In this document: piece after piece, positions 15,790 through 39,780 of the stretch
Position numbering within the stretch: the first letter of the stretch is position 1
Layout of the letters: each line of letters opens with the position of its first letter
The notes under the pieces: model-generated
What the model was told of the DNA's origin: nothing
Database searches by the model: none
The model's input: only the letters and a program-made list of their open reading frames with translations
Assembly (NCBI GenBank): GCA_030681835.1
Contig: JAUXRN010000075.1
Coordinates: forward strand, 1,561-65,560
Source: Actinomycetota bacterium
Lineage (GTDB): Bacteria > Actinomycetota > Actinomycetes > S36-B12
Direction: 5' to 3'
Length of the DNA stretch: 64,000 nt
Made by a program: the position numbers and the translations under genes

Positions 15790-15814
15790 CCCATCACGAA
15801 GCCGCAAGGCTTCG

Positions 15815-16480
15815 TCATGCCCGCCGGCCGGCCAGGCTCCCCCACCGCAGCGCGGCATCCCGGTCGTAGCCCCGCCCGGACGTCACGCCGAGGATCCACC
15901 TGACGGGACCGGGCACCTGGCTCCGCAGGGCGGCCGCTCCCGCCGGGTCCGCGGAGTCCGCCATCCACATGAGCGACGTGCTCGCGTCCTTCATGGACAT
16001 GCCCTTGCGGTAGTAGTTCTTCTCCAGGTACTTCCAGTCGGCGTCGTCGAGCGTCGCGACCACGACGGGCACGGAGTCACGCTCCTCGTGCTCGAGGTGC
16101 GGCAGCGTCACTCCCGCCATCTCCGCCACCGCGGCGCGCAGCGCCTCCCTGTTGGCGTCCGACCCGTCGGCGTCGTAGGCGGCCGCCGCCGCGACCGTGC
16201 GGTCGGACGCGACCACCATCGCGTCGTGCTCCGCGCCGTTCACGGCCGCCAGCTCGGCCGCGTCCGGCCGCTTCGCCACGACCCTCGGCCACATGCCCTC
16301 GTCCTCGCCCACGTGGTGGTGGTGCACCGTCCGCACCAGCCACGGGACGAACGCGCAGACGGCCGCCCGGCGCTCGGCCGGCAGCGGCCCGGCCAGCACC
16401 GCGTCGAGCCGGGCGAGGTCCCGCCGCAGGGCGTTGTGGATGACGGTGTTCATCGCCATGTGATCGGTGCCAGTGGCCAT
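15815..16480 (-). CDS. Hemerythrin (HHE cation-binding) domain protein
   Basis: It has the His/Glu/Asp-rich pairs typical of hemerythrin-like domains (HNALRRD, HHHHVGEDE, HLEHEERD). It lies between tRNA-Asp and tRNA-Phe. Confidence 0.75.
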   Translation of the reverse strand: MATGTDHMAMNTVIHNALRRDLARLDAVLAGPLPAERRAAVCAFVPWLVRTVHHHHVGEDEGMWPRVVAKRPDAAELAAVNGAEHDAMVVASDRTVAAAAAYDADGSDANREALRAAVAEMAGVTLPHLEHEERDSVPVVVATLDDADWKYLEKNYYRKGMSMKDASTSLMWMADSADPAGAAALRSQVPGPVRWILGVTSGRGYDRDAALRWGSLAGRRA

Positions 16481-16622
16481 CGCGTGCCTCCCAGGACGGT
16501 CGAATCGCCGCCGTCCGGTGAGCGCCCCCGCCCCGGATCCGCGGCGAAATCCCCTGCTATCGTCTGTCGCCGGAAGATACGCGCCTGCCGCCCTCAGCGG
16601 AAGGCCCTTCCGGGCTCCACAC

Positions 16623-16699
16623 GGCCAGGTAGCTCAGTTGGTACGAGCGTCCGACTGAAAATCGGAAGGTCGGCGGTTCGACCCCGCCCCTGGCCACCA
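16623..16699 (+). tRNA. tRNA-Phe (anticodon GAA), with encoded CCA
   Basis: Acceptor GGCCAGG/CCTGGCC, anticodon stem TCCGA/TCGGA with loop CTGAAAA, T-arm GGTTCGACCCC, and 3' ACCA. Confidence 0.92.
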
Positions 16700-16766
16700 C
16701 TCGAACCCCTGAAAGCCTTGCCAATGCTTATTCTTAGGTGAGGAACAAGGTCGGAGTTAGTGCGAC

Positions 16767-16831
16767 TTGACTGTGCTAAACCTGTGCGAATTGTCGTTTG
16801 GCAATCCAAGACTGTGCTAATGCTGTGCTGA
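16767..16831. repeat. Cluster of short direct repeats (GACTGTGCTAA x2 plus two partial CTGTGC copies) in the noncoding island edge
   Basis: GACTGTGCTAA occurs at 16769-16779 and 16810-16820. CTGTGCGAA occurs at ~16782 and CTGTGCTGA at ~16824. The local sequence is much more AT-rich than the genome. Confidence 0.6.
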
Positions 16832-16976
16832 GGACCTGTCGTCGAATGCACCTGCTCGGAGTCACCTCCGACCGACCAAGTCAGCCAGATACCCGCTGAG
16901 CCGCGGCTCGACCTTCTCCACGATCCAGGGATTAGGCCTGATCTGCACCGACCAACCGTGACCCCGGCCGCAACCG

Positions 16977-16997
16977 CCAGCATTCAGTGAATGCTGG
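16977..16997. repeat. Perfect palindrome CCAGCATTCA-G-TGAATGCTGG (10-bp arms)
   Basis: Read directly from the sequence. It lies ~70 nt downstream of the methyltransferase stop (minus strand). There is no U-tract, so it is not called as an intrinsic terminator. Confidence 0.6.
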
Positions 16998-17069
16998 CGA
17001 CCAGCCCTTGAGACGCCCGGGTTCGGGATGCGTGCCTCCGCTGTGTTCTGCACCTCGTCTCGTTGCCGC

Positions 17070-19088
17070 CTACGGCTGGAGCAGGCTGCGCCGTTCTTCA
17101 CTGAGACGAGCGATGCTTAGTGCGGCGTGATTCATGGCATCGACCGCGCTGCGGTACTGCTCCCCGATCTCGGCCAGAGCCTTCGCATGGTCCGTGCCCT
17201 TAACCGGCACAGGAATCAGAACCTCCGCCAGTTCAGTAGTGCGAATCCGGTTGTGCGATGAAGACGTCCCAGAAGTGAGGCTGCCAATCTGCCTTTGCAC
17301 AACTTCCGATTGGAGTAGGAAAGCCAAGCTGTAGAGCGTTAGGGGTGACCCAGCCTTCATCCTCATGATCTCGAACTCACTCGAACAGGTCATTGGCCTG
17401 CCTAGATCCGGAACGACGCAGATCCGGGGAATACGAGGGTTGATCTTCGACAGGAGTAGATCTCCGGCCGTCACCCGAGGACCTGGCGTCTTCGGCCTGT
17501 AGGCGAGAGCGGCATGCACATCCAGAAACCCCTCCCCCAGCACATGCTTGACCGAGATACAGGCTGGCTCGACTTCGCTGGCGCTGTGCTTCGAGGGTCG
17601 ACTGCCGACGAAATCCACCAGGAGATCAAGCTTGGTCATGTCGACACTGGCATCGGCACCTTGCGACCCAATGATTGCCACCCGCTCCGCGCTGAAGTGT
17701 CTCGGCGTCCATGCACCTCGCCAGATTTCACGGTTCGGCACCACGACAGCAGAGGGTCGCTCAAGCAGCACGGTGGCCGCCCTCACTCCCGCTTCCATGT
17801 CCTGCGCCTCGATGGCGTCCAGCAGCGCCGGCAACTCGTTCACACCAACAGGCTTCTTGACCAACACCCCCTTGCGGGAGGAGACATCGAAGCCGAGCTC
17901 CTCGACGACACCCATGACCGCTGGCTCGTCGCCTCGCGCCTTGCCCTTCTGCAGATACAGAACGACCGTCTTGGTCCGAGTACCAGCCTGCGCGAAAGTG
18001 GTCGCGGGTAGCTCGACCAGGGCGCGCAGCCTCACCTCGTCTTGCAGGTGGCGCCGCAACTTCGCAGCCATGCCCCGCGCCGACACGACGCCGTCTGGGA
18101 GGACGATCAGCATGCGCCCCCCTTCCCTCAGGAACTCGAGGTTTCGCTCCAGGAAGAGCAGCTCAGAATCGATCACACCACGATCCACCGTGGACGAGAG
18201 GAATGGTGCTGTGTTCCTTCCCTGCCTGACCTCCTCCGCCATGATTCGCGCCCCGAACGGCGGGTTGGTCAGAATCACATCCACCTTGCCGATCCAGTCG
18301 TCGAGAGGCGTGCCTTCCAGCGCCGAGTCGCCTTGCGAGACCTGATGGCCTCCAGCCTCGAACATCTGCATGTTGATCGTGCACAGGCGAACCATCCGAT
18401 CGACTTTGTCCTGGGCAACGAGTTGCACTTGCTCCCGCGCCAGCCAGCCCACCTGAGGTGCCAGGTCGTAGACAGTCGTCAGGAATGAACCCACTCCGCA
18501 AGTCGGATCCATGAAGACCCAGTCCCTGTCCGCGACCTGGGTCAGCTCGTCAGTGCGGCCAAGGTCTTCGAGAACCAATCGCACCATGAACTGAGTGACC
18601 TCTGGCGGTGTCAGGTACTGCGCATCCTCGATGTTCCCTCTGAAGTTGTCCCGAACGAAGTGACCGAATGCCTCGTTCAGCAGATCAAACGGATGACCCG
18701 CCTGACGCACGGCGAACGCATCGTCGACTGCCTGCCGGACGACGGCGACAAGTTGGCGGGCCAGTTGCTCGTCACCCGCACGCAGCACGAGGCTCGGCGA
18801 TGGACCGAAGATCGAACGACCTTCTCGATCGCGGTACTCCGGAAGTTCGGCGGTCTTCCGGAAGGCCACTCCTAGCCGTTCCAGAAGATCTGCGTCCTCA
18901 GCGTCCGGGAATTCGATGGGGTTCCCGGCCTTCTCGGCGACGTAGGTTGCGAACATCTTGGCGATCTCATCGAGCTTCGCATTGGAGTCGTCCAGACGCC
19001 CGCTTCGATGAAAGACCTCCCGGAGTTCACCCAGGCCGGAGTACACGCGGCCGTAAGCTTCAGCTAGCTGCCGATCCTCTGCCTGCAT
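17070..19088 (-). CDS. N6-adenine DNA methyltransferase (gamma class) fused to a single HsdS-like target-recognition domain
   Basis: ATG 19088 is preceded by GGAGGAG. It has motif I FMDPTCGVGSFL and motif IV ILTNPPFG. The C-terminal ~200 aa resembles a type I S-subunit TRD (LLSKINPRIPRI..., SEFEIMR..., SSSHNRIRTTELAEVLIPVP). Confidence 0.85.
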   Translation of the reverse strand: MQAEDRQLAEAYGRVYSGLGELREVFHRSGRLDDSNAKLDEIAKMFATYVAEKAGNPIEFPDAEDADLLERLGVAFRKTAELPEYRDREGRSIFGPSPSLVLRAGDEQLARQLVAVVRQAVDDAFAVRQAGHPFDLLNEAFGHFVRDNFRGNIEDAQYLTPPEVTQFMVRLVLEDLGRTDELTQVADRDWVFMDPTCGVGSFLTTVYDLAPQVGWLAREQVQLVAQDKVDRMVRLCTINMQMFEAGGHQVSQGDSALEGTPLDDWIGKVDVILTNPPFGARIMAEEVRQGRNTAPFLSSTVDRGVIDSELLFLERNLEFLREGGRMLIVLPDGVVSARGMAAKLRRHLQDEVRLRALVELPATTFAQAGTRTKTVVLYLQKGKARGDEPAVMGVVEELGFDVSSRKGVLVKKPVGVNELPALLDAIEAQDMEAGVRAATVLLERPSAVVVPNREIWRGAWTPRHFSAERVAIIGSQGADASVDMTKLDLLVDFVGSRPSKHSASEVEPACISVKHVLGEGFLDVHAALAYRPKTPGPRVTAGDLLLSKINPRIPRICVVPDLGRPMTCSSEFEIMRMKAGSPLTLYSLAFLLQSEVVQRQIGSLTSGTSSSHNRIRTTELAEVLIPVPVKGTDHAKALAEIGEQYRSAVDAMNHAALSIARLSEERRSLLQP

Positions 19089-19181
19089 GGCAACCGCTCC
19101 TCCGATGACAATCTCTATTGGCAATAATGATGGCCACTCTAGCGGAGTGGTCTGACAGCGCTGACGACCCAGAATCGACAC
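19089..19181. promoter_or_regulatory. Divergent promoter/operator region between the M gene and the C-R operon (candidate C-box elements)
   Basis: It contains the inverted repeat TATTG-G-CAATA (19116-19126). It also contains CTGAC-AGCG-CTGAC with the core palindrome CAGCGCTG (19152-19165). The operator role is inferred only. Confidence 0.3.
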
Positions 19182-19397
19182 ATGGGGGTAACCGAGGACG
19201 TAGCCGCAAGAATCCGCAACGCTCGACTGCGTCGAGGCCTGTCGCAGGCGTCGGTAGCCAAGCTGGCAGGACTCTCCCGAACGCACTACGGCCAATTGGA
19301 GCGCGGCCAGTCATCGCCGACCGTCGTGACTCTCGAGGCGGTCGCCAACGCACTCGGCGAATCACTGCCTGAGCTCCTTGGGGAGCGTGCATCATGA
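19182..19397 (+). CDS. Controller (C) protein, XRE-type HTH regulator of the R-M system
   Basis: 71-aa HTH (LSQASVAKLAGLSRTHYGQLERGQSSPT). It lies immediately upstream of the nuclease gene, overlapping it by 4 nt, and is divergent from the methyltransferase. Confidence 0.75.
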   Translation: MGVTEDVAARIRNARLRRGLSQASVAKLAGLSRTHYGQLERGQSSPTVVTLEAVANALGESLPELLGERAS

Positions 19398-20041
19398 CGA
19401 GCGCACCCGAAGAACGCCTCGCGGAGGCCTTGCGACTCCTGGATCACCACCGTGAGGCATTTCATGCAGTGGTGGATGTCGCCTCGGAGACGGGGCACCC
19501 GGTTCCAATGGACACACGTGGTTGGTCCCAGATCATCGTGAGTGTCCTGACCGGCGTCCACGGGCTGGATCGCAAGAAAGGCGCCGATCTTGACGACGGT
19601 TCGGACGTCAAGGGCGCCAACACGTGGCACGCCATAGACACCCCACGGTTCAACGGAGTGGTCAAGGCTGGCACCCAGGCCGACGCATCCGACAGCATCG
19701 CCAGCCTCGACGCCATGCCCTACCTGTACTTCGTTCTCTGGGACACGTCGCCTCGTGGCCGCGATCGATGCCGAATCTGGGTCGTGCGTCCTGACACTGA
19801 TCCCGTGTTCCGGGCCATGGCTGATGACTGGTACGAGCAGCGGGCCATCGGCACCATCAAGTCGAACAACTTCCAGCTGCACCCTCCTCGGGGCAAGGAC
19901 TCTGACGAGATTCGGAACAGTTGCGGCAACTTGTTGTACCCGCTCTTCTTTGCCGCCGAGGTGGGTTCCAGCGACGAGTACGAGATCACAACCTACGATC
20001 CCGCTGTCCTAGTAAGCGGCATTTGTCGTCCATCTCGCTAG
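19394..20041 (+). CDS. Putative type II restriction endonuclease (PD-(D/E)XK-like)
   Basis: ATGA overlap with the C gene. It has the candidate catalytic motif GADLDDGSDVKGAN (D...D-x-K). The position is classic for the R gene of a C-R operon. The family was not identified. Confidence 0.6.
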   Translation: MTSAPEERLAEALRLLDHHREAFHAVVDVASETGHPVPMDTRGWSQIIVSVLTGVHGLDRKKGADLDDGSDVKGANTWHAIDTPRFNGVVKAGTQADASDSIASLDAMPYLYFVLWDTSPRGRDRCRIWVVRPDTDPVFRAMADDWYEQRAIGTIKSNNFQLHPPRGKDSDEIRNSCGNLLYPLFFAAEVGSSDEYEITTYDPAVLVSGICRPSR

Positions 20042-20203
20042 AGCGCCCGGGCGACTGCTATGTGTGCCCATCGTCCAGCTTGCACGACAACGGCCTCCCC
20101 AATTAGCAGTGAACGGACCAGTTCAGGGCTGACCCCGGTACTGCTGCTGGAGGCGGCCGCTCGTTGCTGTTCGGACGCCAAATCCGTCCACGCTCTGGGT
20201 CCT

Positions 20204-20515
20204 TCAGGGTGCGGATTGTGGGTCGACGATGGGTAACTCCACGTCAACTGTCAAGATGCCGCGATCCACGTAGCCGCCCCACTCCATCGCACTCATTCCG
20301 GATTCCACATACGCTTCACCAACAACTTGCACGGTGCCGTCGGGGAGCGTGGTCGCCCCGGTGATCTCATAGCCACCGATGTCGCCGTTGTCGTCGAAGA
20401 ACGCCTCGACGGCGGCCGTCACCTGTTCCTGGGTCACTCGGACGCGGACGGCGAAGGGTATCGCCATTAGGTCGGAGTCCGCGCCCGACTCTTCCTCGCC
20501 ACCTTCAACGTTCAT
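20204..20515 (-). CDS. Small acidic hypothetical protein (103 aa), downstream partner of the 410-aa gene
   Basis: ATG 20515 is preceded by a strong RBS (AGGAGGAG, 6-7 nt upstream). The protein is Asp/Glu-rich with no recognisable motif. Confidence 0.65.
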   Translation of the reverse strand: MNVEGGEEESGADSDLMAIPFAVRVRVTQEQVTAAVEAFFDDNGDIGGYEITGATTLPDGTVQVVGEAYVESGMSAMEWGGYVDRGILTVDVELPIVDPQSAP

Positions 20516-20693
20516 GTCGTCTCCTCCTACTTCACCTTGTCATCGAATTGAGCCCGGTCCACGCCGTTTGTGGCCGCGAGGCTTTCAAGTATTCAGCTAT
20601 CTCCTGCCAGATTCCGGGCAGACGATCACCTGTTCGTCTTGCTTCCAAAGCGCCTCCGCAGGTACTCGCCGCGTTGCCTAACTGGGATTCTGC

Positions 20694-21926
20694 CTATGAA
20701 TGTGGCATCGGAGTGGGACTGACAAGGTCGTCGAGTTGTACGAGCCACTGTGTTCCGAGTGCCGCTGCGGCTCGCTGCTCGAGTTCGGACACCTGCGAAG
20801 TGCGCTGCCAGTCCCAGGCTTGGTTGAGGTCATCGCGGCTGGGTTGCCGAGGCGTTCGGGGCCGCTTCAACCCGGCCCGGTCACACAGGAGCGCCAGCGA
20901 TAGGTCACCGAAAACCCATGTGCCGCGGAGACCACCAAAGCCGTAGGGCGAGGAATAGTAGACCCCGCCGTCGAGAAAGGCGTGGCACTCCGAGATCGAG
21001 GAGTACATGCTGACACCGGAACTGTTGTTGACCGCCTGCAGGTTCGCCAAAGCCATGAACACCCGCTGGAGGATGGCTTCGTCGGCGTTCGCTTTGAACG
21101 CGTACACGTGTGAGGCCCCACGGGAGCGCGAGAAGGCATGTGACCACAGCAACACGGGGCGATCCTCCCTGAGGAATCCCTCGGCAGTGAGATCCCGGGC
21201 AAGGATGCCCTCACCACGGAAGGCGCAAGCTTGATCGAGCGTGACGCCTCTCTGGGCGTAGCCGGTCGCGGACAGGTAGCTGAATCCCGCTTCGACCCAC
21301 GGCTCGACCTGCTGGGGATTCGCGAAGCCCTTCGACAGAATGCCGGCATCCTTTGCGGCAAAGCCCGCGTCACGCCACGAGAGCCAGACCGGCAGGGCCC
21401 AACCGAAGTGGTCGAACCACTCCTCGACGGCGTAGTCACCGAAGCCGGCGTCGAATGCAGCAAGGATCTGGTCCGCGGTAAGCATCGTCTGCAGAAGACG
21501 GCTACTCACCGTCACCTTGCCGCCACGGTTCGCCCAGTCGACGGCGAGCCGGGCGAACTCGTCCAACGAGTAGTGCTCGATCCAGGCGAGGTGGTCCCGG
21601 TTGAGGTGGTTCACCCCTAGTTCGCGCAATTGCATGGCGGCAACGGGCTCAATCAACGAGTCGTACATGGTCGCGTCCCACCTCATGCGGTCGCCCGGCG
21701 GGGGCATGCCCGCGGCTAGCCATTCCTTCGCCCTATCGATGCTCATTCCGCTTCCACGGCAGTGATTGGCGCTGTTCAAGGTGAAGCCGATGTCCCGCCA
21801 CGCCGATGCCTCTTCAGGGGCGTAGTCCATGCGGCCCCACTGGAACGCTTCGTCCTCGTCGAAACCGGCCGCCGCCCACGCGGCGAGTTCCTGCGGTGTC
21901 TGTTTGGACGTGTAGGTGCTGCCCAC
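20694..21926 (-). CDS. Hypothetical 410-aa protein with degenerate W-x-x-A-G-F repeats; no recognisable domain
   Basis: GTG 21926 has a G-rich RBS. Repeated motifs are LAAWAAAGF, ASAWRDIGF, AKEWLAAGM, ILAAFDAGF, LSWRDAGF and VEPWVEAGF. It is divergent from the Nudix gene. Confidence 0.7.
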   Translation of the reverse strand: MGSTYTSKQTPQELAAWAAAGFDEDEAFQWGRMDYAPEEASAWRDIGFTLNSANHCRGSGMSIDRAKEWLAAGMPPPGDRMRWDATMYDSLIEPVAAMQLRELGVNHLNRDHLAWIEHYSLDEFARLAVDWANRGGKVTVSSRLLQTMLTADQILAAFDAGFGDYAVEEWFDHFGWALPVWLSWRDAGFAAKDAGILSKGFANPQQVEPWVEAGFSYLSATGYAQRGVTLDQACAFRGEGILARDLTAEGFLREDRPVLLWSHAFSRSRGASHVYAFKANADEAILQRVFMALANLQAVNNSSGVSMYSSISECHAFLDGGVYYSSPYGFGGLRGTWVFGDLSLALLCDRAGLKRPRTPRQPSRDDLNQAWDWQRTSQVSELEQRAAAALGTQWLVQLDDLVSPTPMPHS

Positions 21927-22070
21927 GGTCGTTGCCCCTTCCCCCGGGTCCCACTATGTACCGGTCGTCTGGCGGTCTCCTGCTGATTCGCCCGGAGGGA
22001 GCCGATGCCCACACAGCACAGCCCGCCCTGTCGCACTGAATCTGTAAGCTCCAGGGACGAGGGAGGCACG

Positions 22071-22466
22071 GTGACAAGGCGGATTCGCGTGGTGGGGGCC
22101 GCGGTTCTCCACGACGGACTCATACTCTGCGCTCAACGTGGCCCACAAGGGAACCTGGCTGGCCTTTGGGAGTTCCCAGGAGGAAAGATCGAGCCAGGGG
22201 AATCACCCGCAGTTGCGCTTGAGCGCGAGATACGCGAGGAACTGGACTGCTCGGTCGAGGTTGGGCGCGAGATCACAACGACGACCCACGAGTACGACTT
22301 CGGTGTCGTCACTCTGACGACGTTCTACTGTCGCCTCGTGGCCGGTACGCCGACGCTAACCGAGCACGTAGCCCTCAAGTGGCTGCGACCAGACGAGCTC
22401 GACACCATCACTTGGGCGCCTGCCGACCTCCCGGCGGTGGCCATGATCCAGGCGGATCACGCCTGA
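22071..22466 (+). CDS. MutT/NudG-like Nudix hydrolase ((deoxy)nucleoside triphosphate pyrophosphohydrolase)
   Basis: GTG 22071 follows GGGAGG. Nudix box GGKIEPGESPAVALEREIREELD, preceded by LWEFPGG. The stop overlaps the helicase start (TGATG). Confidence 0.85.
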   Translation: MTRRIRVVGAAVLHDGLILCAQRGPQGNLAGLWEFPGGKIEPGESPAVALEREIREELDCSVEVGREITTTTHEYDFGVVTLTTFYCRLVAGTPTLTEHVALKWLRPDELDTITWAPADLPAVAMIQADHA

Positions 22467-25366
22467 TGGAAAGCGATCTCATCTGGGCCGATCGCTTCAA
22501 CCGCGACATCCAGTACGGCTATGTGGGAAGCCAGGCAGCGGGGCCAGGGCACTACAACCCAAGGCTGGTGCTCAACCAGGACGGGCGAACCGTCGAACAC
22601 GCACTCGTCGAGGAACTCGAGCTAGGCGGCGACTTCACGTTCTCGGTTGCCTTCATCTCCGCCGGAGCCATAGCGCAGCTGAAGCAGCACCTGCTTGAAC
22701 ACAGGGGCAATGGGAGAATCGTCACGTCAGACTTCCTCCGCTTCAACAATCCGCGGGCCTTCGCAGAGCTACTGAACCTCAAGAAGCACCTGGGCATCGA
22801 CGTCAGACGCCACGCAGCCGAGGGGTTCCATCCCAAGGGCTACATATTCCAACGGCCCCGGAGTGTTACTGCCATGATCGGCAGCTCGAACCTCACGAAC
22901 CGGGCTCTATCACAGAACCACGAATGGAATCTCAAAGTCTCGGCGGCCGCGGGCAGTGACCTTGCCGCACAGCTGATGAGGCTTCTCGACGATCAGATCG
23001 CCGCGTCCGAGCCACTGACTCAAGAGTGGATCGACGAATACGCGGCCACGTACGTCGCGCCCCCGAGTCGCGAAATAGGAAGGACCACGCTTCCTGGAGA
23101 GCCTTCGCTCGGTTCCCCAATCGAGCCCAACAGCATGCAGCAAGATGCTCTTCTCGCTCTGGATCTCGCCAGGGCACAGGGAAACAAACGCGCGATCGTC
23201 ATCTCGGCCACCGGAACAGGGAAGACGATGCTCTCCGCGCTGGACGTGCGTTCAGTAGACCCGAAACGCATGCTCTTTGTCGTCCACCGAGAGCAGATTC
23301 TTGCTCGCACGATTCGGGAGTATCAGCGGGTACTGCAAGGTCCTCCCACGAACTATGGCCTGCTCACCGGAACAAGCAAGCAACTGGACCGACGCTACGT
23401 CTTTGCCACCATCCAGACGCTGTCGCAAGAGGCCACTCTCACTTCCTTGCCATACGACGCCTTCGACTACGTCATCATCGACGAGGCGCATCGAGCTGGG
23501 GCTGCTTCGTATCAGCGAGTGATCGAGAGGCTCCGGCCTAGCTTTCTGCTTGGTATGACCGCAACGCCGGAACGAACTGACGGGTTCAACGTCTTTGAAC
23601 TCTTCGACTACAACGTCCCGTACGAGATTCGACTCAGCAAGGCGCTCGAAGCAGAGATGCTGTCGCCTTTCCACTACTACGGAATCTCCGACGTGGTCTA
23701 CGAAGGCGCCGGTACGACCACAGATGACACACCTCTTCACCTGTTGATTTCCCCCGAACGAGTGGAACATCTCATTCGAGCACTGGAGCTTTACGGTCAG
23801 GCAGGGGTGGCTCCACGAGGCCTGATCTTCTGTAGCCGCCGGGAGGAAAGCCACAGACTCGCCGAAGAGCTGAACCAACGCTCCCTGCGGGGCCGGCCTC
23901 TGCGAACAGTCGCACTTACCGGCGAGGATTCCATCGAAACCCGCGAACGCCGGGTCGCCCAACTGGAGGCTGGAGAGCTCGACTACATCCTCACTGTCGA
24001 CGTATTCAACGAAGGCGTCGATATCCCGAGCCTGAACCAAGTCGTCATGCTTCGGCAGACGCAGTCCGCAATCGTGTTCGTTCAGCAGTTGGGTCGAGGT
24101 TTGCGCCTCGCCGAGGGGAAGGAGTACCTGGCGGTCATTGACTTCATCGGCAACTACACCAACAACTTCCTCATTCCGATCGCACTGTTTGGCGATGACT
24201 CCCTTAACCGCGAGTCGCTTCGAGAGCGCTTGAATGAGGCAGTTGAAGGGGGCGCTCTCCCGGGCCTGTCAAGCGTCAGCTTCGACGAGATCGCTCGTGA
24301 CCGAATCCTGGAGTCGATCAAGCAGACGCAGCTCGACAGCATGGCGAACCTGAAGAACGCCCTCCTAGCGATGAGAAACCGAGTGGGCGGTGTGCCCAAA
24401 CTCTGGGACTTCTACCGCTTCCGCTCAGTGGATCCGGTGCTACTGGCCACGAAGAAGGAGCATTACCCCGCGCTAGCGCAATCCCTGCTTCGAGTCGATT
24501 CCATGCTTAGCTCGAGTGAATCGCGGGCTCTGGATCTCCTCTCACACGAGGTTCTCGCAAGCAAGCGCATGCACGAGTTCGTCCTCCTTGAGCTGCTCCT
24601 CGCGACTGGGGCCGTCACTTTGTCCGATATCCGCGATGCATTCGCCTTGGCTGACATTCCAAGCGATCCCTCACACATCACAAGCGCCGTCGACACGCTC
24701 ACGTTGACGGGTTACGCGCAGGCAGATGTCACCCGGTATCAGACCGGCATCGCGGAACGCCATGACGACACGGTGCGACTTACTGAGGAGTTTCGAGTCG
24801 CGTACGCCGAATCATCCGCCCTGAGTGACGCTGTTGCTGATCTCGTGAAGACCGGCAAGGAGCTCACTCGCGACCGCTATGAGGCGGGTCTTCCGTTCAC
24901 GTCGGGTATGCAGTACTCCCGACGAGATGCCGCCCGCATCGTCGGATGGCCTCGCGCCTTTGCCTCGACCATCTATGGCTATAAGACCGACGAGGCCACC
25001 GGCGTTTGTGCGATCTTTGTGACGCTTCACAAGTCCAGCGAAATCGACGCGAGCACAGCGTATGAAGACCAGTTGCTGGACCCGTCAACGATGCGGTGGT
25101 TCTCCAGAAGTAGGCGGACTCTGGAGAGTAGGGAGGTGAGGCTGGTCGTGGACGGCTTGGTTCACGTGCACGTATTCGTCAAGAAGGACGACGCAGAGGG
25201 CAGCGACCACTACTACCTGGGGCCAGCCACGGCAACCGAAGCCGAGGAAACGACCATGCCGGACGGCGACGGAAGGCCCCTGTCGGTGGTGACCATGCTG
25301 CTCAAATTCGACCAACCGATCAAACAGGGCCTATTCGACTACTTCCATCCGCTCCACGTTGGCTGA
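22466..25366 (+). CDS. PLD-family nuclease domain + SF2 (DEAH) helicase + large C-terminal domain (DUF3427-type architecture)
   Basis: PLD HKD motif (FHPKGYIF...IGSSNLT). Helicase motifs ATGTGKT (I), IIDEAHR (II), MTATPER (III) and QQLGRGLR (VI). The C-terminal ~330 aa carry no motif I can name. ATG 22466 was chosen over the upstream run-on. Confidence 0.85.
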   Translation: MESDLIWADRFNRDIQYGYVGSQAAGPGHYNPRLVLNQDGRTVEHALVEELELGGDFTFSVAFISAGAIAQLKQHLLEHRGNGRIVTSDFLRFNNPRAFAELLNLKKHLGIDVRRHAAEGFHPKGYIFQRPRSVTAMIGSSNLTNRALSQNHEWNLKVSAAAGSDLAAQLMRLLDDQIAASEPLTQEWIDEYAATYVAPPSREIGRTTLPGEPSLGSPIEPNSMQQDALLALDLARAQGNKRAIVISATGTGKTMLSALDVRSVDPKRMLFVVHREQILARTIREYQRVLQGPPTNYGLLTGTSKQLDRRYVFATIQTLSQEATLTSLPYDAFDYVIIDEAHRAGAASYQRVIERLRPSFLLGMTATPERTDGFNVFELFDYNVPYEIRLSKALEAEMLSPFHYYGISDVVYEGAGTTTDDTPLHLLISPERVEHLIRALELYGQAGVAPRGLIFCSRREESHRLAEELNQRSLRGRPLRTVALTGEDSIETRERRVAQLEAGELDYILTVDVFNEGVDIPSLNQVVMLRQTQSAIVFVQQLGRGLRLAEGKEYLAVIDFIGNYTNNFLIPIALFGDDSLNRESLRERLNEAVEGGALPGLSSVSFDEIARDRILESIKQTQLDSMANLKNALLAMRNRVGGVPKLWDFYRFRSVDPVLLATKKEHYPALAQSLLRVDSMLSSSESRALDLLSHEVLASKRMHEFVLLELLLATGAVTLSDIRDAFALADIPSDPSHITSAVDTLTLTGYAQADVTRYQTGIAERHDDTVRLTEEFRVAYAESSALSDAVADLVKTGKELTRDRYEAGLPFTSGMQYSRRDAARIVGWPRAFASTIYGYKTDEATGVCAIFVTLHKSSEIDASTAYEDQLLDPSTMRWFSRSRRTLESREVRLVVDGLVHVHVFVKKDDAEGSDHYYLGPATATEAEETTMPDGDGRPLSVVTMLLKFDQPIKQGLFDYFHPLHVG

Positions 25367-25495
25367 AGGGTCAGGTACCGAAGCCGGCTTCCGGGCCGAA
25401 AGACGCGAGGCGGCCTTCCGGATCCGTGTGCCACTCCCGTGCGTCGGACTCGGGGGCTAACGTGACCAGCAGCACTTAGCCTGCGCGGGGGTTCC

Positions 25496-26596
25496 ATGTC
25501 GACACTGCACGTAACAGACGCTCGAGCCGTCGAGAAAGCCCTCGACGAATTTGACCAAATAGGCCGCGACGAGTTCCTTCGCCGATATCGGTTTGGCAGG
25601 GCCCGCGCCTACTTCATTGTTCGCAACGGCAAGAAGTACGACTCCAAGGCCGTACTCGGTGCTGCGCATATGTTCCAGTTCGGCCGAGCCCTGCCACACG
25701 AGGAGTTCAGCGGAGGCGACGCCGGCGCAGCCCGCGAGCTTCGCCAACTCGGATTCACCGTGGTCGGGCCCGAAAGCACTCCGGTCCAAGCCGAGGTGAG
25801 GCCACAGACATTCATCCTTACCTGGAACTCGCTCAAGTGGGACTGGAACACGGGTGGCCGCCCGAACGCCATCGAGGCGACCGCGCTAGGTGAGCGGGTG
25901 CCGGACCGCTGGGCCACGGGAGTCCGCAGCGGAGGTATCCGGCCAGGTGACCGCGCGTTCCTATTGCAGCAGGGACCCCTTCGCGGCCTAGTCGCATCGG
26001 GCTGGTTCACCTCTGAGGTCTTCCAGGAACCGCACTGGGACGGAGCCCCGAGCAAGTTCGCCAACTACGCGAGCGTGTCTTGGGACAGAGTCTTGTCAGA
26101 CAACGCGATGCTCGATATCGACGACATCAAGGATCAAGTCCCCGGGTTGAATTGGGACCGTATCCAAGGCTCGGGGGTTCAGCTGCCGGCAGACGGGGCG
26201 CTCCAACTCGAGGCGCTGTGGACGGGCGATGAGCCGTTCACCAGCCCTGAGGAGGAGGGCGCCGAAACTCTCACTGAGGGGTCCCTCGCCAGGGTCACTG
26301 TGAATCGCTACGAGCGAAACCCGGCCGCGCGAGCTGCATGCCTCGCACACTACGGATCAGTGTGCGCCGTATGCGACATGTCATTCGGCGACCGTTACGG
26401 AAGCATCGGCGAGGGCTTCATACACGTGCATCACCTAAGGGAGATTTCGACGATCGGCCAGGAGTACACGATCGATCCCATCGTGGACCTGCGCCCGGTG
26501 TGCCCAAACTGCCACGCAATGCTGCACAAGCAGACACCGGCCTTCACTCCCGAGGAGCTCAGACGCTTACTCCTCGCAGAGGATCACGAGTTATGA
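25496..26596 (+). CDS. McrA-like type IV (modification-dependent) HNH endonuclease with a PUA/EVE-like middle domain
   Basis: C-terminal HNH (CAVCDMSF...IHVHHLREIS...PVCPNCHAMLH). The middle domain is EVE/PUA-like (FILTWNSLKWDW...GDRAFLLQQG...GLVASGWF). The N-terminal module DEFDQIGRDEFLRRYRFGRARAYFIVRNGKKYDSKAVLGAAH is common at the N-termini of type IV enzymes. Confidence 0.8.
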   Translation: MSTLHVTDARAVEKALDEFDQIGRDEFLRRYRFGRARAYFIVRNGKKYDSKAVLGAAHMFQFGRALPHEEFSGGDAGAARELRQLGFTVVGPESTPVQAEVRPQTFILTWNSLKWDWNTGGRPNAIEATALGERVPDRWATGVRSGGIRPGDRAFLLQQGPLRGLVASGWFTSEVFQEPHWDGAPSKFANYASVSWDRVLSDNAMLDIDDIKDQVPGLNWDRIQGSGVQLPADGALQLEALWTGDEPFTSPEEEGAETLTEGSLARVTVNRYERNPAARAACLAHYGSVCAVCDMSFGDRYGSIGEGFIHVHHLREISTIGQEYTIDPIVDLRPVCPNCHAMLHKQTPAFTPEELRRLLLAEDHEL

Positions 26597-26747
26597 GGGA
26601 GCGTCTCGGACCCTGTGGACAACGGCTCTTTTCTGCCCGCACTTCTGTCCTTTCTTTGTGGTTCTCAGTGCGTCTTGGTGAGTCTGGGTGCGCGAAAACT
26701 TCTCAATACCAACAACTACCAGAGTCCGATTCTCGAGGGGGAGGGTC

Positions 26748-26789
26748 TGAGAATTGGAAGGGGCTGCGTTTCGCCCACCCCTGGCCACC
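26748..26789 (+). repeat. Degenerate direct repeat of the tRNA-Phe 3' half (att remnant / pseudo-tRNA fragment)
   Basis: tgagaattggaaggggctgcgtttcgcccacccctggccacc aligns with tRNA-Phe tgaaaatcggaaggtcggcggttcgaccccgcccctggccacc. The terminal 12 nt are identical. Confidence 0.65.
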
Positions 26790-26916: not shown

Positions 26917-27765
26917 CTAACGCTGCGGGAAGTACTTGCGGTGCTTGCCGAACGACTCGAGATACGCAGTGGCTCCGTTCGCGGCTACGAACTCGGTGAC
27001 CCCCTCGTGGTCAGCCGCACCGGGCGTCCAGTCGTAGGTGTAGCCCAGTCGCGTCCACGGGAATCCGTAGCAGCGCTCGGTATTCCAGTTCACTGCGCAC
27101 GACACCGCGGCCTTCGGATGGAACGCTGACGGCAGCCGCCAGGCGTAGTTCGCCTGCGTCCACAGGAATGACGCGAGGTCGGTGGATCCGACCGTGCTCG
27201 GGACCGGATCCGCCGCAGATCCGGACGCAACCTGCTCTGGGCAGGAGCGCACAGTCACCCGCGGGTCGGTGCATGGTCTGAACATGTCCGACGGCTTGAC
27301 CCAGAAGCGAATGATGTAGTCGTAGTCAGCGTCCGGGGGGAGCCCGACGATCTGCCTGAGCTGGAGATCGAGTGCCGCATCGTCCATGCGCCGGCACTTG
27401 TACGCCGCGCATGCCTGCGCCAGGTCGCGCGGGACCGATACCCATCGATCGCCCGGCAACTGGAACTTCTGACCAGGATCCACTCCGGTGAACGGCGCGC
27501 CGCGCAACTGCCCCACCAGGAGGTATTGCTCGCCGTCGATCACCTTCCACTGGGTGCGGCCATCGCTTGGTGACAGCACGAGCAGGTTGGTCACGACCTC
27601 GTCCGGCCTGGCAACGGCCGAGTCGATGATCGCATCGCGGTAGGCGCTCCAGATCGACGCGGGGAACGTCGGTGTCGGCGGCGTGGCCGCACCGGCATTG
27701 CCGGCGATCGCCGTGGCAGCCAGCAGGGATGCCCCGATGCTGAGCCCGATCCGCGCCGCACGCAT
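26917..27765 (-). CDS. Secreted hypothetical protein
   Basis: It has a signal peptide (MRAARIGLSIGASLLAATAIAGNAGAA), several Cys pairs and backbone-like GC3. Confidence 0.7.
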   Translation of the reverse strand: MRAARIGLSIGASLLAATAIAGNAGAATPPTPTFPASIWSAYRDAIIDSAVARPDEVVTNLLVLSPSDGRTQWKVIDGEQYLLVGQLRGAPFTGVDPGQKFQLPGDRWVSVPRDLAQACAAYKCRRMDDAALDLQLRQIVGLPPDADYDYIIRFWVKPSDMFRPCTDPRVTVRSCPEQVASGSAADPVPSTVGSTDLASFLWTQANYAWRLPSAFHPKAAVSCAVNWNTERCYGFPWTRLGYTYDWTPGAADHEGVTEFVAANGATAYLESFGKHRKYFPQR

Positions 27766-38422: not shown

Positions 38423-39022
38423 GTGGACACCGTCCGAGCCGGCGTGCGCCTCGCCACTGACGCCGACGTCGGAGCCGTGGCGACGATGGTTGCCGCTGCC
38501 TTCGCCACCGACCCCGCCTGGTCGTTCATCATCGGGCCCGGCAACCCCCGCGCGAGGGAAGCGTTCGCCCGCACCCTGCTCATGCCGCGCATCGGACGGG
38601 GCACAGCGTGGGTCACCGACGACTGCACGGCCGTCGCGATGTGGGACCGCTTCGCTGTCGGGGGCCCGGTCGACGCTGACCATGGCGCGCGATGGGCCGC
38701 ATTCCGAGACGAGGTGGGCGAGCACGTCTGGGCCCGGCTCGAGGCGTACGAGGCCGGACTCAAGGCCGCCTCACCCGCCCGGCCGTACTGGTACCTCGGG
38801 GTGCTCGCCACCCACCCCGACCTGCACGGTCGTGGCCTGGCAAGTGCCGTGCTGCGTCCGGGACTGGACGCGGCCGATGCCGACGGGTGGGACTGCTGGC
38901 TCGAGACGTCGACCCCCGCCAACAAGGCGTTCTACGCCGGTCGCGGCTTCACCGATGCCGTGCCGGTCGACGTGCCCGGCGGGCCCCCGACGTGGTGGCT
39001 GCGGCGACCGGCGCGGCACTAG
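38423..39022 (+). CDS. GNAT-family N-acetyltransferase (copy 2, paralog of 33226-33831)
   Basis: By manual alignment, roughly four-fifths of residues are identical to copy 1, and the C-terminal 40 aa are nearly identical. The start is uncertain (GTG 38423, or upstream to 38345). Confidence 0.8.
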   Translation: MDTVRAGVRLATDADVGAVATMVAAAFATDPAWSFIIGPGNPRAREAFARTLLMPRIGRGTAWVTDDCTAVAMWDRFAVGGPVDADHGARWAAFRDEVGEHVWARLEAYEAGLKAASPARPYWYLGVLATHPDLHGRGLASAVLRPGLDAADADGWDCWLETSTPANKAFYAGRGFTDAVPVDVPGGPPTWWLRRPARH

Positions 39023-39088
39023 GGAGGGACGTCGACCAGATCGCGGCAACATATTCCCATCGGGGAATATGTCAGATAGGGTCGGCCC

Positions 39089-39403
39089 ATGCAGGTCGAG
39101 ACGCTGGTGGCGTTGGGCGAGCCGAATCGCCTGCGCATCGTCGAGCTGCTGAAACGAGGGCCATGCTCCGTGGGCGAGATCGCCGACCGGCTCTCGCTTC
39201 GCCAGCCGCAGGCGTCCAAGCACCTGCGGGTGCTGAGCGACGCCCGGCTGCTGAAGGTCGAGGCCGTCTCGCGACGACGGATCTACCGACTCAACGAGGA
39301 GCCCTTCAGCGACATGGCCGAGTGGCTCACGTCGTTCGAGGGCACGTGGCAGTCGCGCCTCGACGCCCTCGGCGCCTTCCTTGCAACCGACGGAGACAGA
39401 TGA
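39089..39403 (+). CDS. ArsR/SmtB-family transcriptional regulator
   Basis: Pattern LGEPNRLRIVELLKRGPCSVGEIADRLSLRQPQASKHLRVL. Confidence 0.9.
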   Translation: MQVETLVALGEPNRLRIVELLKRGPCSVGEIADRLSLRQPQASKHLRVLSDARLLKVEAVSRRRIYRLNEEPFSDMAEWLTSFEGTWQSRLDALGAFLATDGDR

Positions 39404-39780
39404 TGCTGGGCAAGTTGATACCCGTGAAGAAGGACCTGCTCTTCGAGCGCACCTACGCGGCCCCGCGCTCACGGGTGTGGGAGGCCTGGACGCGGCCCGA
39501 ACTGCTGAAGCAGTGGTGGGGCCCGGAGAAGACGTTCATCCCCGAGTGCGAGGTGGACCTGCGCATCGAGGAGGCGGGGACCACCATCCATCACGACAAC
39601 GAGCTGACGCTGGCAGACGGGCCGGACGGCAGCACCGTGATGACGCTTCGCGTCACCATCACGGACATCGGGCCCGACGCCAGGCTCGCCGCCTTCGGCA
39701 TGAAGTGGGGCTACAAGCAGCCGTTCGGCAAGCTCGCGGCCCTGCTGTCCGCGCAGGTGACGACCAACGGAGAATCCTGA
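39400..39780 (+). CDS. SRPBCC/AHSA1-like domain protein (short)
   Basis: Pattern RVWEAWTRPELLKQWWGPE is typical of AHSA1/SRPBCC proteins that follow ArsR genes. ATGATG overlaps the arsR stop. Confidence 0.7.
   Translation: MMLGKLIPVKKDLLFERTYAAPRSRVWEAWTRPELLKQWWGPEKTFIPECEVDLRIEEAGTTIHHDNELTLADGPDGSTVMTLRVTITDIGPDARLAAFGMKWGYKQPFGKLAALLSAQVTTNGES

What the first reader, a model, noticed from the sequence alone, without database searches (positions are those of the whole stretch)
16623..26789. ~10 kb integrase-less defence island inserted at tRNA-Phe, bounded by a decayed copy of the tRNA 3' half
Seen:
- An intact tRNA-Phe(GAA) lies at 16623-16699.
- At 26748-26789 the string tgagaattggaaggggctgcgtttcgcccacccctggccacc aligns with the anticodon-loop-to-acceptor part of that tRNA (tgaaaatcggaaggtcggcggttcgaccccgcccctggccacc). 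The last 12 nt are identical.
- Between the two, base composition drops visibly. Individual 60-nt lines count near 50-60% GC by hand, against >70% in the flanks.
- There are unusually long noncoding stretches at both edges (16700-17069 and 26597-26747).
- Every recognisable gene is defence-related: C/R/M type II R-M, Nudix plus PLD-helicase, and McrA-like HNH.

Established: tRNA 3' ends are classical att sites for tyrosine-integrase elements, and integration duplicates the tRNA 3' portion.

Inference: this is a horizontally acquired island that has lost its integrase and is fixed in place. I could find no integrase, excisionase or transposase ORF at either edge.
Basis: partly seen in the sequence, partly recalled or inferred. 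Interest (0 to 1): 0.7.

Follow-up and report, generated by a model that had tools for sequence, protein, structure and literature searches.

The report
Integrase-less defence island at tRNA-Phe
A 10-kb block of anti-phage genes sits next to a tRNA-Phe gene and is the immobilised, integrase-less relative of a family of mobile elements that use this same tRNA site in related actinobacteria; this is a well-known kind of genome feature.

Summary
tRNA-Phe(GAA) lies at 16623-16699. A 43-nt imperfect copy of its 3' part (36 of 45 aligned columns, last 12 nt identical) lies at 26747-26789 and beats every shuffle. GC falls to 0.59-0.64 between them, against about 0.72 outside. All recognisable genes there are defence genes: a MamI-type C/R/M system, Nudix coupled to a full-length SauUSI homologue, and a ScoMcrA-like HNH enzyme. 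No recombinase gene or remnant was found.

Comparison with relatives supports the reading. In two close relatives, homology to the window stops at the tRNA-Phe 3' end. The closest one carries a different 24-kb element there, with a tyrosine integrase, a TrwC relaxase and other defence systems, ending in its own 43-nt tRNA repeat. The 135 nt before that repeat are homologous to window 26612-26746, with the same tandem TTCTGYCC sites at the same spacing, and a third island shares this arm. Integrase-bearing members elsewhere carry the same Nudix-SauUSI pair (73% nt identity).

The window lacks the integrase, the excisionase-like gene and the family's conserved tRNA-side arm. It is best read as a decayed, possibly composite, CIME-like remnant.

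No empty site was found, and the right flank could not be shown to be native. Ordinary in kind.

The parts
16623..16699 (+). tRNA-Phe(GAA), intact, with CCA encoded. It is the integration target (attL core). Homology to close relatives ends at 16697.
   Evidence: ARAGORN; Rfam 70.6 bits; blastn to L001 and L002 stops at 16697
16700..17069 (.). Left noncoding edge (GC 0.589). It is not homologous to the family's conserved tRNA-side arm 'S'. It holds two 19-nt direct repeats, GACTGTGCTAANNCTGTGC, at 16769-16787 and 16810-16828. It also holds a perfect 12-bp hairpin at 16975-16999, which is probably the terminator of the methylase gene.
   Evidence: repeats; 0.05 expected by chance; no similarity to S; no protein-domain remnant
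17070..19088 (-). N6-adenine DNA methyltransferase (672 aa) of the type II R-M system
   Evidence: N6_Mtase, E 1.3e-27; MTase_I/MTase_II models; gene call of 672 aa
19182..19397 (+). Controller (C) protein, HTH_3/XRE type. It is divergent from M and overlaps the start of R by 4 nt.
   Evidence: HTH_3, E 2.5e-16; Control_protein models
19394..20041 (+). MamI-family type II restriction endonuclease (215 aa)
   Evidence: RE_MamI, E 7.5e-39; REase_II
20204..20515 (-). 103-aa ORF of unknown function with no detectable homologues
   Evidence: no family hit; absent next to the u410 homologue in L146
20694..21926 (-). 410-aa orphan protein ('u410'). The N-terminal ~260 aa are short helical-hairpin repeats and the C-terminal domain is unknown. 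Only two close homologues were found in 5.8 billion clusters. One of them sits beside a type III R-M system and directly against the same family arm.
22005..22466 (+). Nudix hydrolase (PADLOC candidate PDC-S07). Its stop codon overlaps the next gene's ATG.
   Evidence: NUDIX_4, E 5e-19; PDC-S07, E 4e-51; 71% aa identity to L155-L158
22466..25366 (+). Full-length SauUSI-type modification-dependent (type IV) restriction enzyme: PLD nuclease, SF2 helicase and DUF3427
   Evidence: mREase_IV, E 2e-202; PDB 7CLG, E 2e-203, residues 10-959 against 7-950; 73% nt and 77% aa identity to integrase-bearing elements L155-L158
25496..26596 (+). ScoMcrA-like HNH endonuclease (366 aa): ScoMcrA N-terminal head domain plus a C-terminal HNH domain
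   Evidence: HNH; mREase_IV; 5ZMM, E 4e-16; 6GHC, E 5.5e-4; PF26345 ScoMcrA_N
26597..26746 (+). Right noncoding edge, which is the conserved attachment arm (P arm) of the element family (GC 0.556). It holds tandem TTCTGCCC (26631) and TTCTGTCC (26643), 116 and 104 nt before the repeat, and AATACCAACAACTAC at 26705-26719.
   Evidence: 66% and 70% identity over 135 nt to L151 and L146, far above shuffles; 24 of 27 nt identical to the tRNA-side arm of L155
26747..26789 (+). Degenerate direct repeat of the tRNA-Phe anticodon-loop-to-acceptor segment (attR core). The compositional boundary falls here.
   Evidence: same extent as the 43-nt repeat in L151

Best explanation
The block 16700-26789 is a horizontally acquired defence island at the 3' end of tRNA-Phe.

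Where it came from. It descends from a family of integrative elements, some of them mobilizable, that use a 474-aa tyrosine integrase. That integrase most likely recombines at the anticodon loop. This restores the tRNA with an element-borne 3' part and leaves a copy of the 43-nt anticodon-loop-to-acceptor segment at the far end.

What is left. The window copy keeps the family's far-end arm, with its tandem TTCTGYCC sites, and the repeat. It has lost the integrase, the HTH_17 excisionase-like gene, any relaxase and the family's tRNA-side arm. Its left third (the edge with CTGTGCTAA-type repeats, and perhaps the R-M module) is probably of different origin. It may have been joined by tandem accretion followed by internal deletion, or by recombination. 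It therefore cannot excise by itself and is probably locked in.

What it does. The cargo is intact and acts as layered restriction:
- A C-controlled MamI-type system cuts unmethylated incoming DNA.
- A Nudix-coupled SauUSI-type enzyme and a ScoMcrA-like HNH enzyme cut DNA that carries foreign modifications.

Shown: the anatomy, the homologies, and the absence of recombinase genes. Inferred: the crossover position, the order of events, the loss of mobility, and the enzymatic activities.
For: - Boundaries: the tRNA and a significant repeat; a sharp compositional step at both ends; homology to the two close relatives L001 and L002 ends at the tRNA 3' end.
- Family: the relative's 24-kb element at the same tRNA has a tyrosine recombinase and a TrwC relaxase. 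It ends in a 43-nt repeat, 41 of 43 nt identical to the tRNA.
- Shared arm: the 135 nt upstream of the repeat are 66-82% identical among the window, L151 and L146. Global scores are 39-87, against shuffle maxima of at most 2. The site spacing is identical.
- The same 27-nt tandem-site block (24 of 27) occurs in the tRNA-side arm of L155.
- Integrase homologues (82-97% identical) lie in elements abutting tRNA-Phe in L153, L154, L155 and L156. L160 shows the same left-flank gene order; its tRNAs were not scanned.
- Shared cargo: the Nudix-SauUSI module has 73% nt identity over 3.3 kb with L155-L158. The u410 homologue lies directly against the family arm in L146.
- Absences: no integrase, Xis or relaxase homologue or domain in the window. 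No S arm in the window.
- Cargo identity and completeness.
Against: - No empty site was found in any relative, so the insertion itself is not directly demonstrated.
- DNA right of the repeat (a 282-aa secreted protein, DUF2306, a MalT-like regulator) has no syntenic counterpart in the relatives. The first gene there has intermediate GC3 of 0.83. The variable region may therefore extend beyond 26789.
- Only one integrase-bearing member could be followed to its far end, so the link between that integrase and this arm rests on L001/L151 alone.
- The composite-origin idea for the left third rests only on the absence of S and on one motif match next to a tRNA-Leu in a viral contig.
- Contig breaks in the source sample suggest that the exact 43-nt repeat occurs in another context there. 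A unique decayed scar does not predict this.
Confidence: 0.78

Rival explanations
1. The island is not dead. It is a cis-mobilizable element (CIME). It keeps usable att sites and is moved when a related integrase-bearing element lands beside it (accretion) and excises together with it, or when the integrase is supplied in trans.
For: - The family arm with its tandem sites, and the core repeat, are retained.
- Related integrase elements circulate in the same environment series: L152 comes from the sibling run SRR13727526.
- Tandem scars beyond the repeat in L151 and L146 show repeated events at this site.
- Contigs of the source run break exactly at both ends of the 43-nt repeat, as expected if that exact sequence has other contexts in the sample.
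- CIMEs and their cis-mobilisation are documented, including in Streptomyces (PMC5704250).
Against: - The tRNA-side arm S of the family is missing.
- The repeat differs from the tRNA inside the anticodon loop (CTGAGAA against CTGAAAA) and at 8 further columns. If the anticodon loop is the crossover region, this heterology should block exchange between attL and attR (established for lambda-type integrases; inference here).
- The contig ends give no sign of attB or attP junctions formed within the 12-nt identical core (my reasoning).
Confidence: 0.12
2. In this lineage the block arrived by homologous recombination in the conserved flanks of a hotspot, not by site-specific integration. A whole pre-formed island with its att scars was swapped in from a diverged donor.
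For: - The gene next to the tRNA (hemerythrin, 15815-16480) has 4-fold-site divergence of 0.33 from the closest relative, against 0.10-0.14 for four genes further left. Such a patch is expected from imported flank DNA.
- Every relative has a different cargo at the same site.
- The repeat is more diverged than expected for decay since the split from that relative.
Against: - No donor or recombination breakpoint on the right side could be identified, because the right flank has no counterpart in the relatives.
- This is a route of arrival, not an alternative identity. The island would still be a decayed integrative element.
Confidence: 0.08
3. There is no island: the repeat is a chance match and the low-GC block is native.
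For: None found beyond the lack of an empty site.
Against: - The repeat score of 42 exceeds all 300 shuffles.
- Its extent equals the 43-nt repeat of a bona fide integrase element.
- The arm next to it is conserved in two other islands.
- GC3 is 0.67-0.79, against 0.93-0.96 in flank genes.
- Relatives lack the block.
Confidence: 0.02

Closest known systems
CIMEs (cis-mobilizable elements): decayed ICE/IME derivatives that keep attL and attR but have lost integration and transfer genes (Pavlovic 2004 and Bellanger 2011, as summarised in PMC5704250)
   Same: It sits at the 3' end of a tRNA gene and is bounded by the tRNA and a repeat of its 3' part. It lacks integrase, excisionase and relaxase genes, while relatives at the same site have them. 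Scars of repeated events at the site occur in relatives.
   Different: Only the far-end arm of the family is retained. The tRNA-side arm is replaced, and the core repeat is 20% diverged, including in the probable crossover region. Mobilisability is therefore doubtful and untested.
Actinomycete integrative elements that target tRNA-Phe (AICEs pSE211, pMEA100, pMR2; PMC2440964)
   Same: An actinobacterial host, a tRNA-Phe target, and tyrosine-integrase logic in the related elements.
   Different: Neither the window nor the related elements show an AICE replication (RepAM/Prim-Pol) or FtsK/TraB-type transfer module. Related members carry a TrwC relaxase or no transfer gene at all. Their cargo is defence systems.
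Defence islands and integration hotspots carried on chromosomally integrated mobile elements (e.g. PMC10201445)
   Same: Several unrelated restriction-type systems are packed together in a compositionally foreign block at a tRNA. Cargo differs between close relatives at the same site, and modules are shared between elements.
   Different: Nothing essential. This is a new instance, in an uncultured high-GC actinobacterium.
SauUSI (PDB 7CLG; PMC3141236), ScoMcrA (5ZMM) and MamI-type R-M systems
   Same: Full-length architecture match to SauUSI. ScoMcrA head domain plus an HNH domain. MamI REase with an N6-methylase and a C protein.
   Different: The SauUSI homologue is translationally coupled to a Nudix hydrolase, and the pair is conserved as a pair in elements L155-L158. 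The HNH protein is much shorter than ScoMcrA (366 against 561 aa) and its middle region matches nothing known. Specificities are unknown.

Membership tests
tRNA-targeting tyrosine-integrase genomic island | Abuts the 3' end of a tRNA gene | tested here: met
   The island starts at 16700, immediately after tRNA-Phe. Homology to relatives ends at 16697.
tRNA-targeting tyrosine-integrase genomic island | Far end marked by a direct repeat of the tRNA 3' segment | tested here: met
   26747-26789, 36 of 45 columns matching, score 42 against a shuffle maximum of 32. Its extent is the same as the 43-nt repeat of the integrase-bearing relative.
tRNA-targeting tyrosine-integrase genomic island | Encodes an integrase | tested here: not met
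   No recombinase domain in any ORF or in the six-frame edge translations. No tblastn hit to 10 family integrases with E below 0.05.
tRNA-targeting tyrosine-integrase genomic island | Foreign composition and variable occupancy among relatives | tested here: met
   GC 0.59-0.64 against 0.72; GC3 0.67-0.79 against 0.93-0.96. Relatives hold different cargo at the site. No empty site was seen.
CIME (cis-mobilizable element) | Derived from an ICE/IME family and lacks integration and transfer genes | tested here: met
   Arm homology and a shared cargo module with integrase- and relaxase-bearing elements. These genes are absent from the window.
CIME (cis-mobilizable element) | Retains functional attL and attR | tested here: inconclusive
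   The attR arm and core are present but the core is 20% diverged. The family's tRNA-side arm S is absent. Function cannot be judged from sequence.
CIME (cis-mobilizable element) | Mobilised in cis after accretion with an incoming element | not testable with these tools
   Needs read-level junction searches or an experiment.
474-aa-integrase tRNA-Phe element family (defined here from L001/L151, L153-L156, L160) | Integrase plus HTH_17 excisionase-like gene | tested here: not met
474-aa-integrase tRNA-Phe element family (defined here from L001/L151, L153-L156, L160) | Conserved ~130-nt arm 'S' directly after the tRNA | tested here: not met
   S is present in L001, L002 and L153-L156, and after the repeat in L146. 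It is absent from the window.
474-aa-integrase tRNA-Phe element family (defined here from L001/L151, L153-L156, L160) | Far-end arm with tandem TTCTGYCC sites 116 and 104 nt before a 43-nt tRNA-Phe repeat | tested here: met
AICE (pSE211/pMEA100 type) | Replication (RepAM/Prim-Pol) and FtsK/TraB-like transfer modules | tested here: not met
   No such domains in any island ORF.
Defence island | Several independent defence systems clustered together | tested here: met
   Type II R-M with a C protein, Nudix plus SauUSI-type type IV, and ScoMcrA-like type IV.
SauUSI-type type IV restriction enzyme | PLD nuclease, SF2 helicase and DUF3427 in one polypeptide | tested here: met
   Pfam domains; end-to-end match to 7CLG, E 2e-203. 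Modification-dependent cleavage was not testable.

The most novel reading that the evidence does not exclude
The integrase-less island is still in circulation as a cis-mobilizable defence cassette. Its conserved far-end arm and 43-nt core would be recognised by the 474-aa integrases of sister elements. Those elements would pick it up by accretion and co-excision, so whole restriction cassettes could be traded between strains without encoding any mobility gene. The trace of this would be the exact 43-nt core occurring in more than one context in the source metagenome. A second possibility is that the orphan 410-aa repeat protein, found only in such islands, is a new defence gene.
Probability: 0.12. 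Interest if true: 0.5.

Novelty: new member of a known kind. Interest (0 to 1): 0.3.

Why it matters
For annotation, this case shows that an island with no integrase can still be assigned to a specific element family from its noncoding attachment arm alone.

The tRNA-Glu/Asp/Phe cluster in this clade of uncultured Actinomycetota was occupied in every relative examined, and the elements there shuffle defence modules (MamI, MvaI and MmeI R-M systems, Kiwa, CBASS, Nudix-SauUSI).

The conserved Nudix-SauUSI pairing and the orphan 410-aa protein are candidates for experimental follow-up. Otherwise the finding is an ordinary example of a decayed integrative element.

Tried and rejected
- Empty-site search. 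Scans with the left-flank hemerythrin in genome contigs and metagenome contigs gave only two close relatives in genome contigs, both occupied. The only close metagenome hit (L124) extends the wrong way.
- Right-flank search. The 282-aa protein gave only non-syntenic homologues of 55-59% identity. The MalT-like regulator gave only homologues of at most 53%. No ortholog was found in the relatives' MAGs, so the native right flank could not be established. The second of these scans was largely wasted.
- Megablast of the whole island against plasmids and phages: no match.
- Exact searches for the 41-nt and 25-nt repeat core and for the arm pattern in viral contigs: no match.
- Recombinase remnants. 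Pfam on six-frame translations of both edges at E up to 1 found nothing. tblastn of all ORFs of the relative's element against the island found nothing.
- Test of whether the 410-aa orphan is a hidden recombinase. The AlphaFold model has pLDDT 68, good only for the N-terminal repeats. Foldseek against PDB gave no match below E 0.004, and Cre appeared only at E 1.3 with TM about 0.1. Rejected.
- L002 as a comparator beyond 3 kb. Its first 8.1 kb form a 90%-identical palindrome at a contig end, probably an assembly artefact.
- A second, older repeat further right in the window: the next best tRNA-like hit scores 31, within the shuffle range, and is on the wrong strand.
- Rfam over 15-29 kb: only the three tRNAs.
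- The viral contig L159 with CTGTGCTAA repeats beside tRNA-Leu: its neighbouring ORFs gave no integrase, so it remains only a lead.
Full report

Yes.

- ARAGORN and Rfam place an intact tRNA-Phe(GAA), with CCA encoded, at 16623-16699. It follows tRNA-Glu and tRNA-Asp and a hemerythrin gene.
- A local alignment of the tRNA against the window finds its best non-tRNA match at 26747-26789: CTGAGAATTGGAAGGGGCTGCGTTTCGCCCACCCCTGGCCACC against tRNA 16655-16698. There are 36 matches in 45 columns, with 6 substitutions and 2 indel events. The score is 42.
- The best score in each of 300 Markov shuffles of the 10.3-kb region, both strands, averaged 23.7 (sd 2.2, maximum 32).
- The terminal 12-mer CCCCTGGCCACC occurs exactly only at these two places.
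- GC is 0.585-0.643 between the two sites and 0.69-0.77 outside. Tetranucleotide distance from the rest of the window doubles over 16-28 kb.
- GC3 of the island genes is 0.67-0.79, against 0.93-0.96 for left-flank genes. The noncoding DNA just before the repeat has GC 0.556 and just after it 0.717.

**2. Gene content**

From the tRNA rightwards:

| Coordinates | Strand | Product |
|---|---|---|
| 17070-19088 | - | N6-adenine methyltransferase |
| 19182-19397 | + | HTH controller protein |
| 19394-20041 | + | MamI-family endonuclease, overlapping the controller gene's end |
| 20204-20515 | - | unknown, 103 aa |
| 20694-21926 | - | unknown, 410 aa ('u410') |
| 22005-22466 | + | Nudix hydrolase; stop overlaps the next ATG |
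| 22466-25366 | + | 966-aa protein: PLD, helicase and DUF3427 domains |
| 25496-26596 | + | 366-aa HNH protein |

- The 966-aa protein aligns end to end with the SauUSI structure 7CLG (E 2e-203).
- The HNH protein matches the ScoMcrA head domain (5ZMM, E 4e-16) at its N terminus and the E. coli McrA HNH domain at its C terminus.
- These genes fill the block. The gaps between them are at most 178 nt.
- No ORF carries a recombinase or transposase domain. Six-frame translations of both noncoding edges gave no Pfam hit at E up to 1.

**3. Relatives: the left boundary**

- A scan with the hemerythrin protein found two close relatives, both MAGs of unclassified Actinomycetota. L001 is about 95% identical in nucleotides over 10 kb of left flank. 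L002 is about 81% identical.
- Both have the same tRNA-Glu/Asp/hemerythrin/tRNA-Phe order. In both, similarity to the window ends at window position 16697, the tRNA 3' end.
- What follows is different low-GC DNA.
- No empty site was found in genomes or metagenomes.

**4. The relative's element**

Two extra fetches (L145, L151) let me follow the element in L001's genome to its end.

- It is about 24 kb long and carries:
  - two Fic proteins;
  - a PD-(D/E)XK nuclease;
  - a 474-aa tyrosine recombinase;
  - a TrwC/AAA_30 relaxase;
  - a kinase::adenylosuccinate-synthetase, MazG-like and lyase module;
  - KwaA/KwaB;
  - a Dcm, MvaI/BcnI and Vsr system.
- It ends at L151 15521-15563 with a 43-nt direct repeat of the tRNA-Phe 3' part, 41 of 43 nt identical. 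The repeat spans the same segment (CTGAAAAT...GGCYAC) as the window's repeat.

**5. The shared arm**

- blastn aligns L151 15442-15563 with window 26658-26788 (E 9e-8).
- Over the 135 nt upstream of the repeats, the window is 66% identical to L151.
- A pattern built from the shared motifs (TTCTGYCC-N4-TTCTGYCC-N45-65-AATACCAACAAC) also hit L146/L147. These are the metagenome contigs that carry the only close homologue of the 410-aa orphan.
- That arm is 70% identical to the window and 82% identical to L151. All three comparisons lie far outside shuffles.
- In the window and in L151 the two TTCTGYCC sites lie exactly 116 and 104 nt before the repeat.
- The repeat in L146 is more decayed still (33 of 46).
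- The 'unusually long noncoding stretch' at 26597-26746 is therefore a conserved attachment arm. It is shared by three islands with three different cargoes.

**6. The integrase family**

- The L001 recombinase has 91 homologues.
- I fetched contexts for four of them. In each, the gene lies in a low-GC element next to the tRNA-Glu/Asp/Phe cluster and the Zincin_1 gene. In L154-L158 an HTH_17 excisionase-like gene lies next to the integrase.
- tRNA-Phe itself was confirmed in L153, L154, L155 and L156. L160 was not scanned for tRNAs.
- Their cargo is defence:
  - L153: an MmeI-type enzyme.
  - L154: a relaxase and a NERD/UvrD-like helicase.
  - L155-L158: CBASS, an HNH-helicase, a GIY-YIG protein and a Nudix-SauUSI pair.
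- That Nudix-SauUSI pair is 73% identical in nucleotides over 3.3 kb to window 22039-25350, and 71% and 77% identical in protein.
- It has the same orientation relative to the tRNA, and in the loci that could be checked it also lies in the half of the element away from the tRNA.

**7. What the window lacks**

- All integrase-bearing members, and L002, share a conserved segment of about 130 nt, called 'S' here, directly after the tRNA. Its landmarks are TCGAAATCC..CAGCGCAACGACTTTCG..CTGCCCTATTCTCTGCCC..CACAATCTGTGGATAAC..GATCGGAAGGTC. It ends in a short further tRNA-like scar.
- In L146, S follows the decayed repeat. This is what tandem accretion of a newer island onto an older element would produce.
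- S contains the same tandem-site block as the far-end arm: 24 of 27 nt match between L155's S and window 26632-26658. This fits integrase arm sites on both arms.
- The window has no S anywhere.
- Its left edge instead holds two 19-nt repeats, GACTGTGCTAANNCTGTGC. The only other occurrence I found is beside a tRNA-Leu, between that tRNA and a repeat of its 3' half, in a viral contig.
- I read this cautiously. The window island may be a composite whose left part comes from a different element, or a product of deletion or recombination that removed S, xis and int.
- No integrase, Xis or relaxase homologue exists anywhere in the 64 kb.

**8. Age and route**

- Four-fold-site divergence between the window and L001 is 0.10-0.14 for four left-flank genes. 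It is 0.33 for the hemerythrin gene next to the tRNA.
- The repeat has about 14% substitutions plus two indels. That is more than expected (about 6% per lineage) if it had only been decaying since the split from L001. The scar is therefore older than that split, or it was imperfect at integration, or the whole segment was imported by homologous recombination.
- The diverged hemerythrin patch favours some recombination at this hotspot.
- Across the three islands, repeat decay rises from L151 (2 differences; integrase present) through the window (9 differing columns) to L146 (13 differing columns). In all three, the part next to the arm (CTGARAATYGG) is well kept (9-11 of 11 nt).
- This fits a crossover at the anticodon loop, with the distal remainder free to decay. 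The crossover position is an inference.

**9. The right side is unresolved**

- The 282-aa secreted protein, a small ORF, a DUF2306 protein, a membrane protein and a MalT-like regulator to the right of the repeat have no syntenic counterparts in the relatives.
- L151 has unrelated genes there (Psd, a cupin).
- Composition returns to background gradually (GC3 0.83, 0.88, 0.89, 0.93). The 127 nt immediately after the repeat already look native.
- The repeat is therefore a sound boundary for this island. More old accessory DNA may lie beyond it.

**10. An unexplained detail**

- Logan contigs of run SRR13727519 are 100% identical to the window.
- They break at 16660/16667 (inside the tRNA), at 22237/22239 (the signature of a single variant base) and at 26776/26760.
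- At the last break, the 13 missing 31-mers are exactly those lying wholly inside 26747-26789.
- In a de Bruijn graph this is the signature of an exact 43-nt repeat with different neighbours on both sides. It hints that this 'decayed' core exists elsewhere in that sample.
- I could not search that sample by DNA. The pattern does not fit simple attB or attP junctions formed in the 12-nt core.

**11. Comparison with what is known**

- tRNA-Phe is a documented target of actinomycete integrative elements: pSE211, pMEA100 and pMR2 (PMC2440964). The elements here lack AICE replication and transfer modules.
[quoted passage not shown] The caveat is that one arm is replaced and the core is diverged.
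- SauUSI and its DUF3427 domain are characterised (PMC3141236).
- As a kind, a defence island at a tRNA hotspot derived from an integrative element is well known.
- New here are only the specific family, its recognisable noncoding arm, and two follow-up candidates: the Nudix-SauUSI pairing and the 410-aa orphan.

**12. Verdict**

This is a new member of a known kind, of modest interest.

Noticed in passing
window 26747-26789; loci L149 and L148 (also L120, L150): De Bruijn (k=31) contigs of run SRR13727519 are identical to the window. They break so that exactly the 31-mers lying wholly inside the 43-nt repeat are missing. This is the signature of an exact repeat with other neighbours on both sides somewhere in that sample. 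It is unexplained.
   Followed up: partly
window 20694-21926 (-); L146 526-1782: The 410-aa orphan protein has only two close homologues in 5.8 billion clusters. One sits beside a type III R-M system and directly against the same family arm. Its N-terminal ~19-aa helical-hairpin repeat recurs in 804 proteins, including 1,500-aa Ser/Thr-kinase/repeat/UvrD-helicase fusions. The C-terminal domain matches no Pfam family or solved fold. It is a possible new defence gene.
   Followed up: partly
L151 3260-9004 (= L145 2334-8078): The relative's element carries a cluster of an AAA-kinase::adenylosuccinate-synthetase fusion, a MazG/PRA-PH-like pyrophosphohydrolase, an adenylosuccinate-lyase-like protein, a Peptidase_M78 protein and DUF7002, next to KwaA/KwaB. 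It resembles PurZ/MazZ-type 2-aminoadenine genes or a nucleotide-targeting defence module.
   Followed up: no
window 15792-16622; L001 10700-11634; L155 16902-17918; L153 12648-12694: The spacer between tRNA-Asp and tRNA-Phe is itself variable. The window, L002 and L154 have a hemerythrin gene there. L001 has that gene plus an extra ~0.95 kb. L155 has a luciferase-like monooxygenase. L153 has nothing. The hemerythrin gene is far more diverged from L001 (4-fold sites 0.33) than neighbouring genes (0.10-0.14).
   Followed up: partly
L159 13865-14175 (IMG/VR UViG_3300048574_000064): A tRNA-Leu(TAG) is followed by ~145 nt that hold four direct copies and one inverted copy of CTGTGCTRA, and then by a ~50-nt repeat of the tRNA's 3' half. 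This is a miniature att-bounded remnant. Its repeat motif matches the window's left edge (16769-16828).
   Followed up: partly
L151 15621-15641; the ~10-15 nt (33 nt in L154) directly downstream of S in L001, L002 and L154; L146 (reverse strand) ~150 nt after its repeat: Extra partial tRNA-Phe-like scars (TCGGAAGGTC...) lie 58-150 nt beyond the tRNA or the main repeat. They suggest repeated integration and accretion events at this site.
   Followed up: partly
L002 1-8113: The first 8.1 kb of this locus form a 90%-identical inverted duplication at a contig end. The locus comes from a MAG with an MFD sample code. It is probably a fold-back assembly artefact. It produces a spurious second tRNA-Phe.
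   Followed up: partly
window 26917-27765 (-): This 282-aa predicted secreted protein has no Pfam family and intermediate GC3 (0.83). Its distribution is patchy: 55-59% identity in a few Actinomycetota MAGs at non-syntenic sites, and about 27% in Bacteroidota. It may be older accessory DNA just outside the island.
   Followed up: partly
window 44600-47000; 39000-42500; 61000-64000: Other compositional oddities occur in the window. There is a tetranucleotide-distance peak at 45-47 kb with normal GC. There are lower-GC patches (0.66-0.68) at 39-42.5 kb and 61-64 kb.
   Followed up: no
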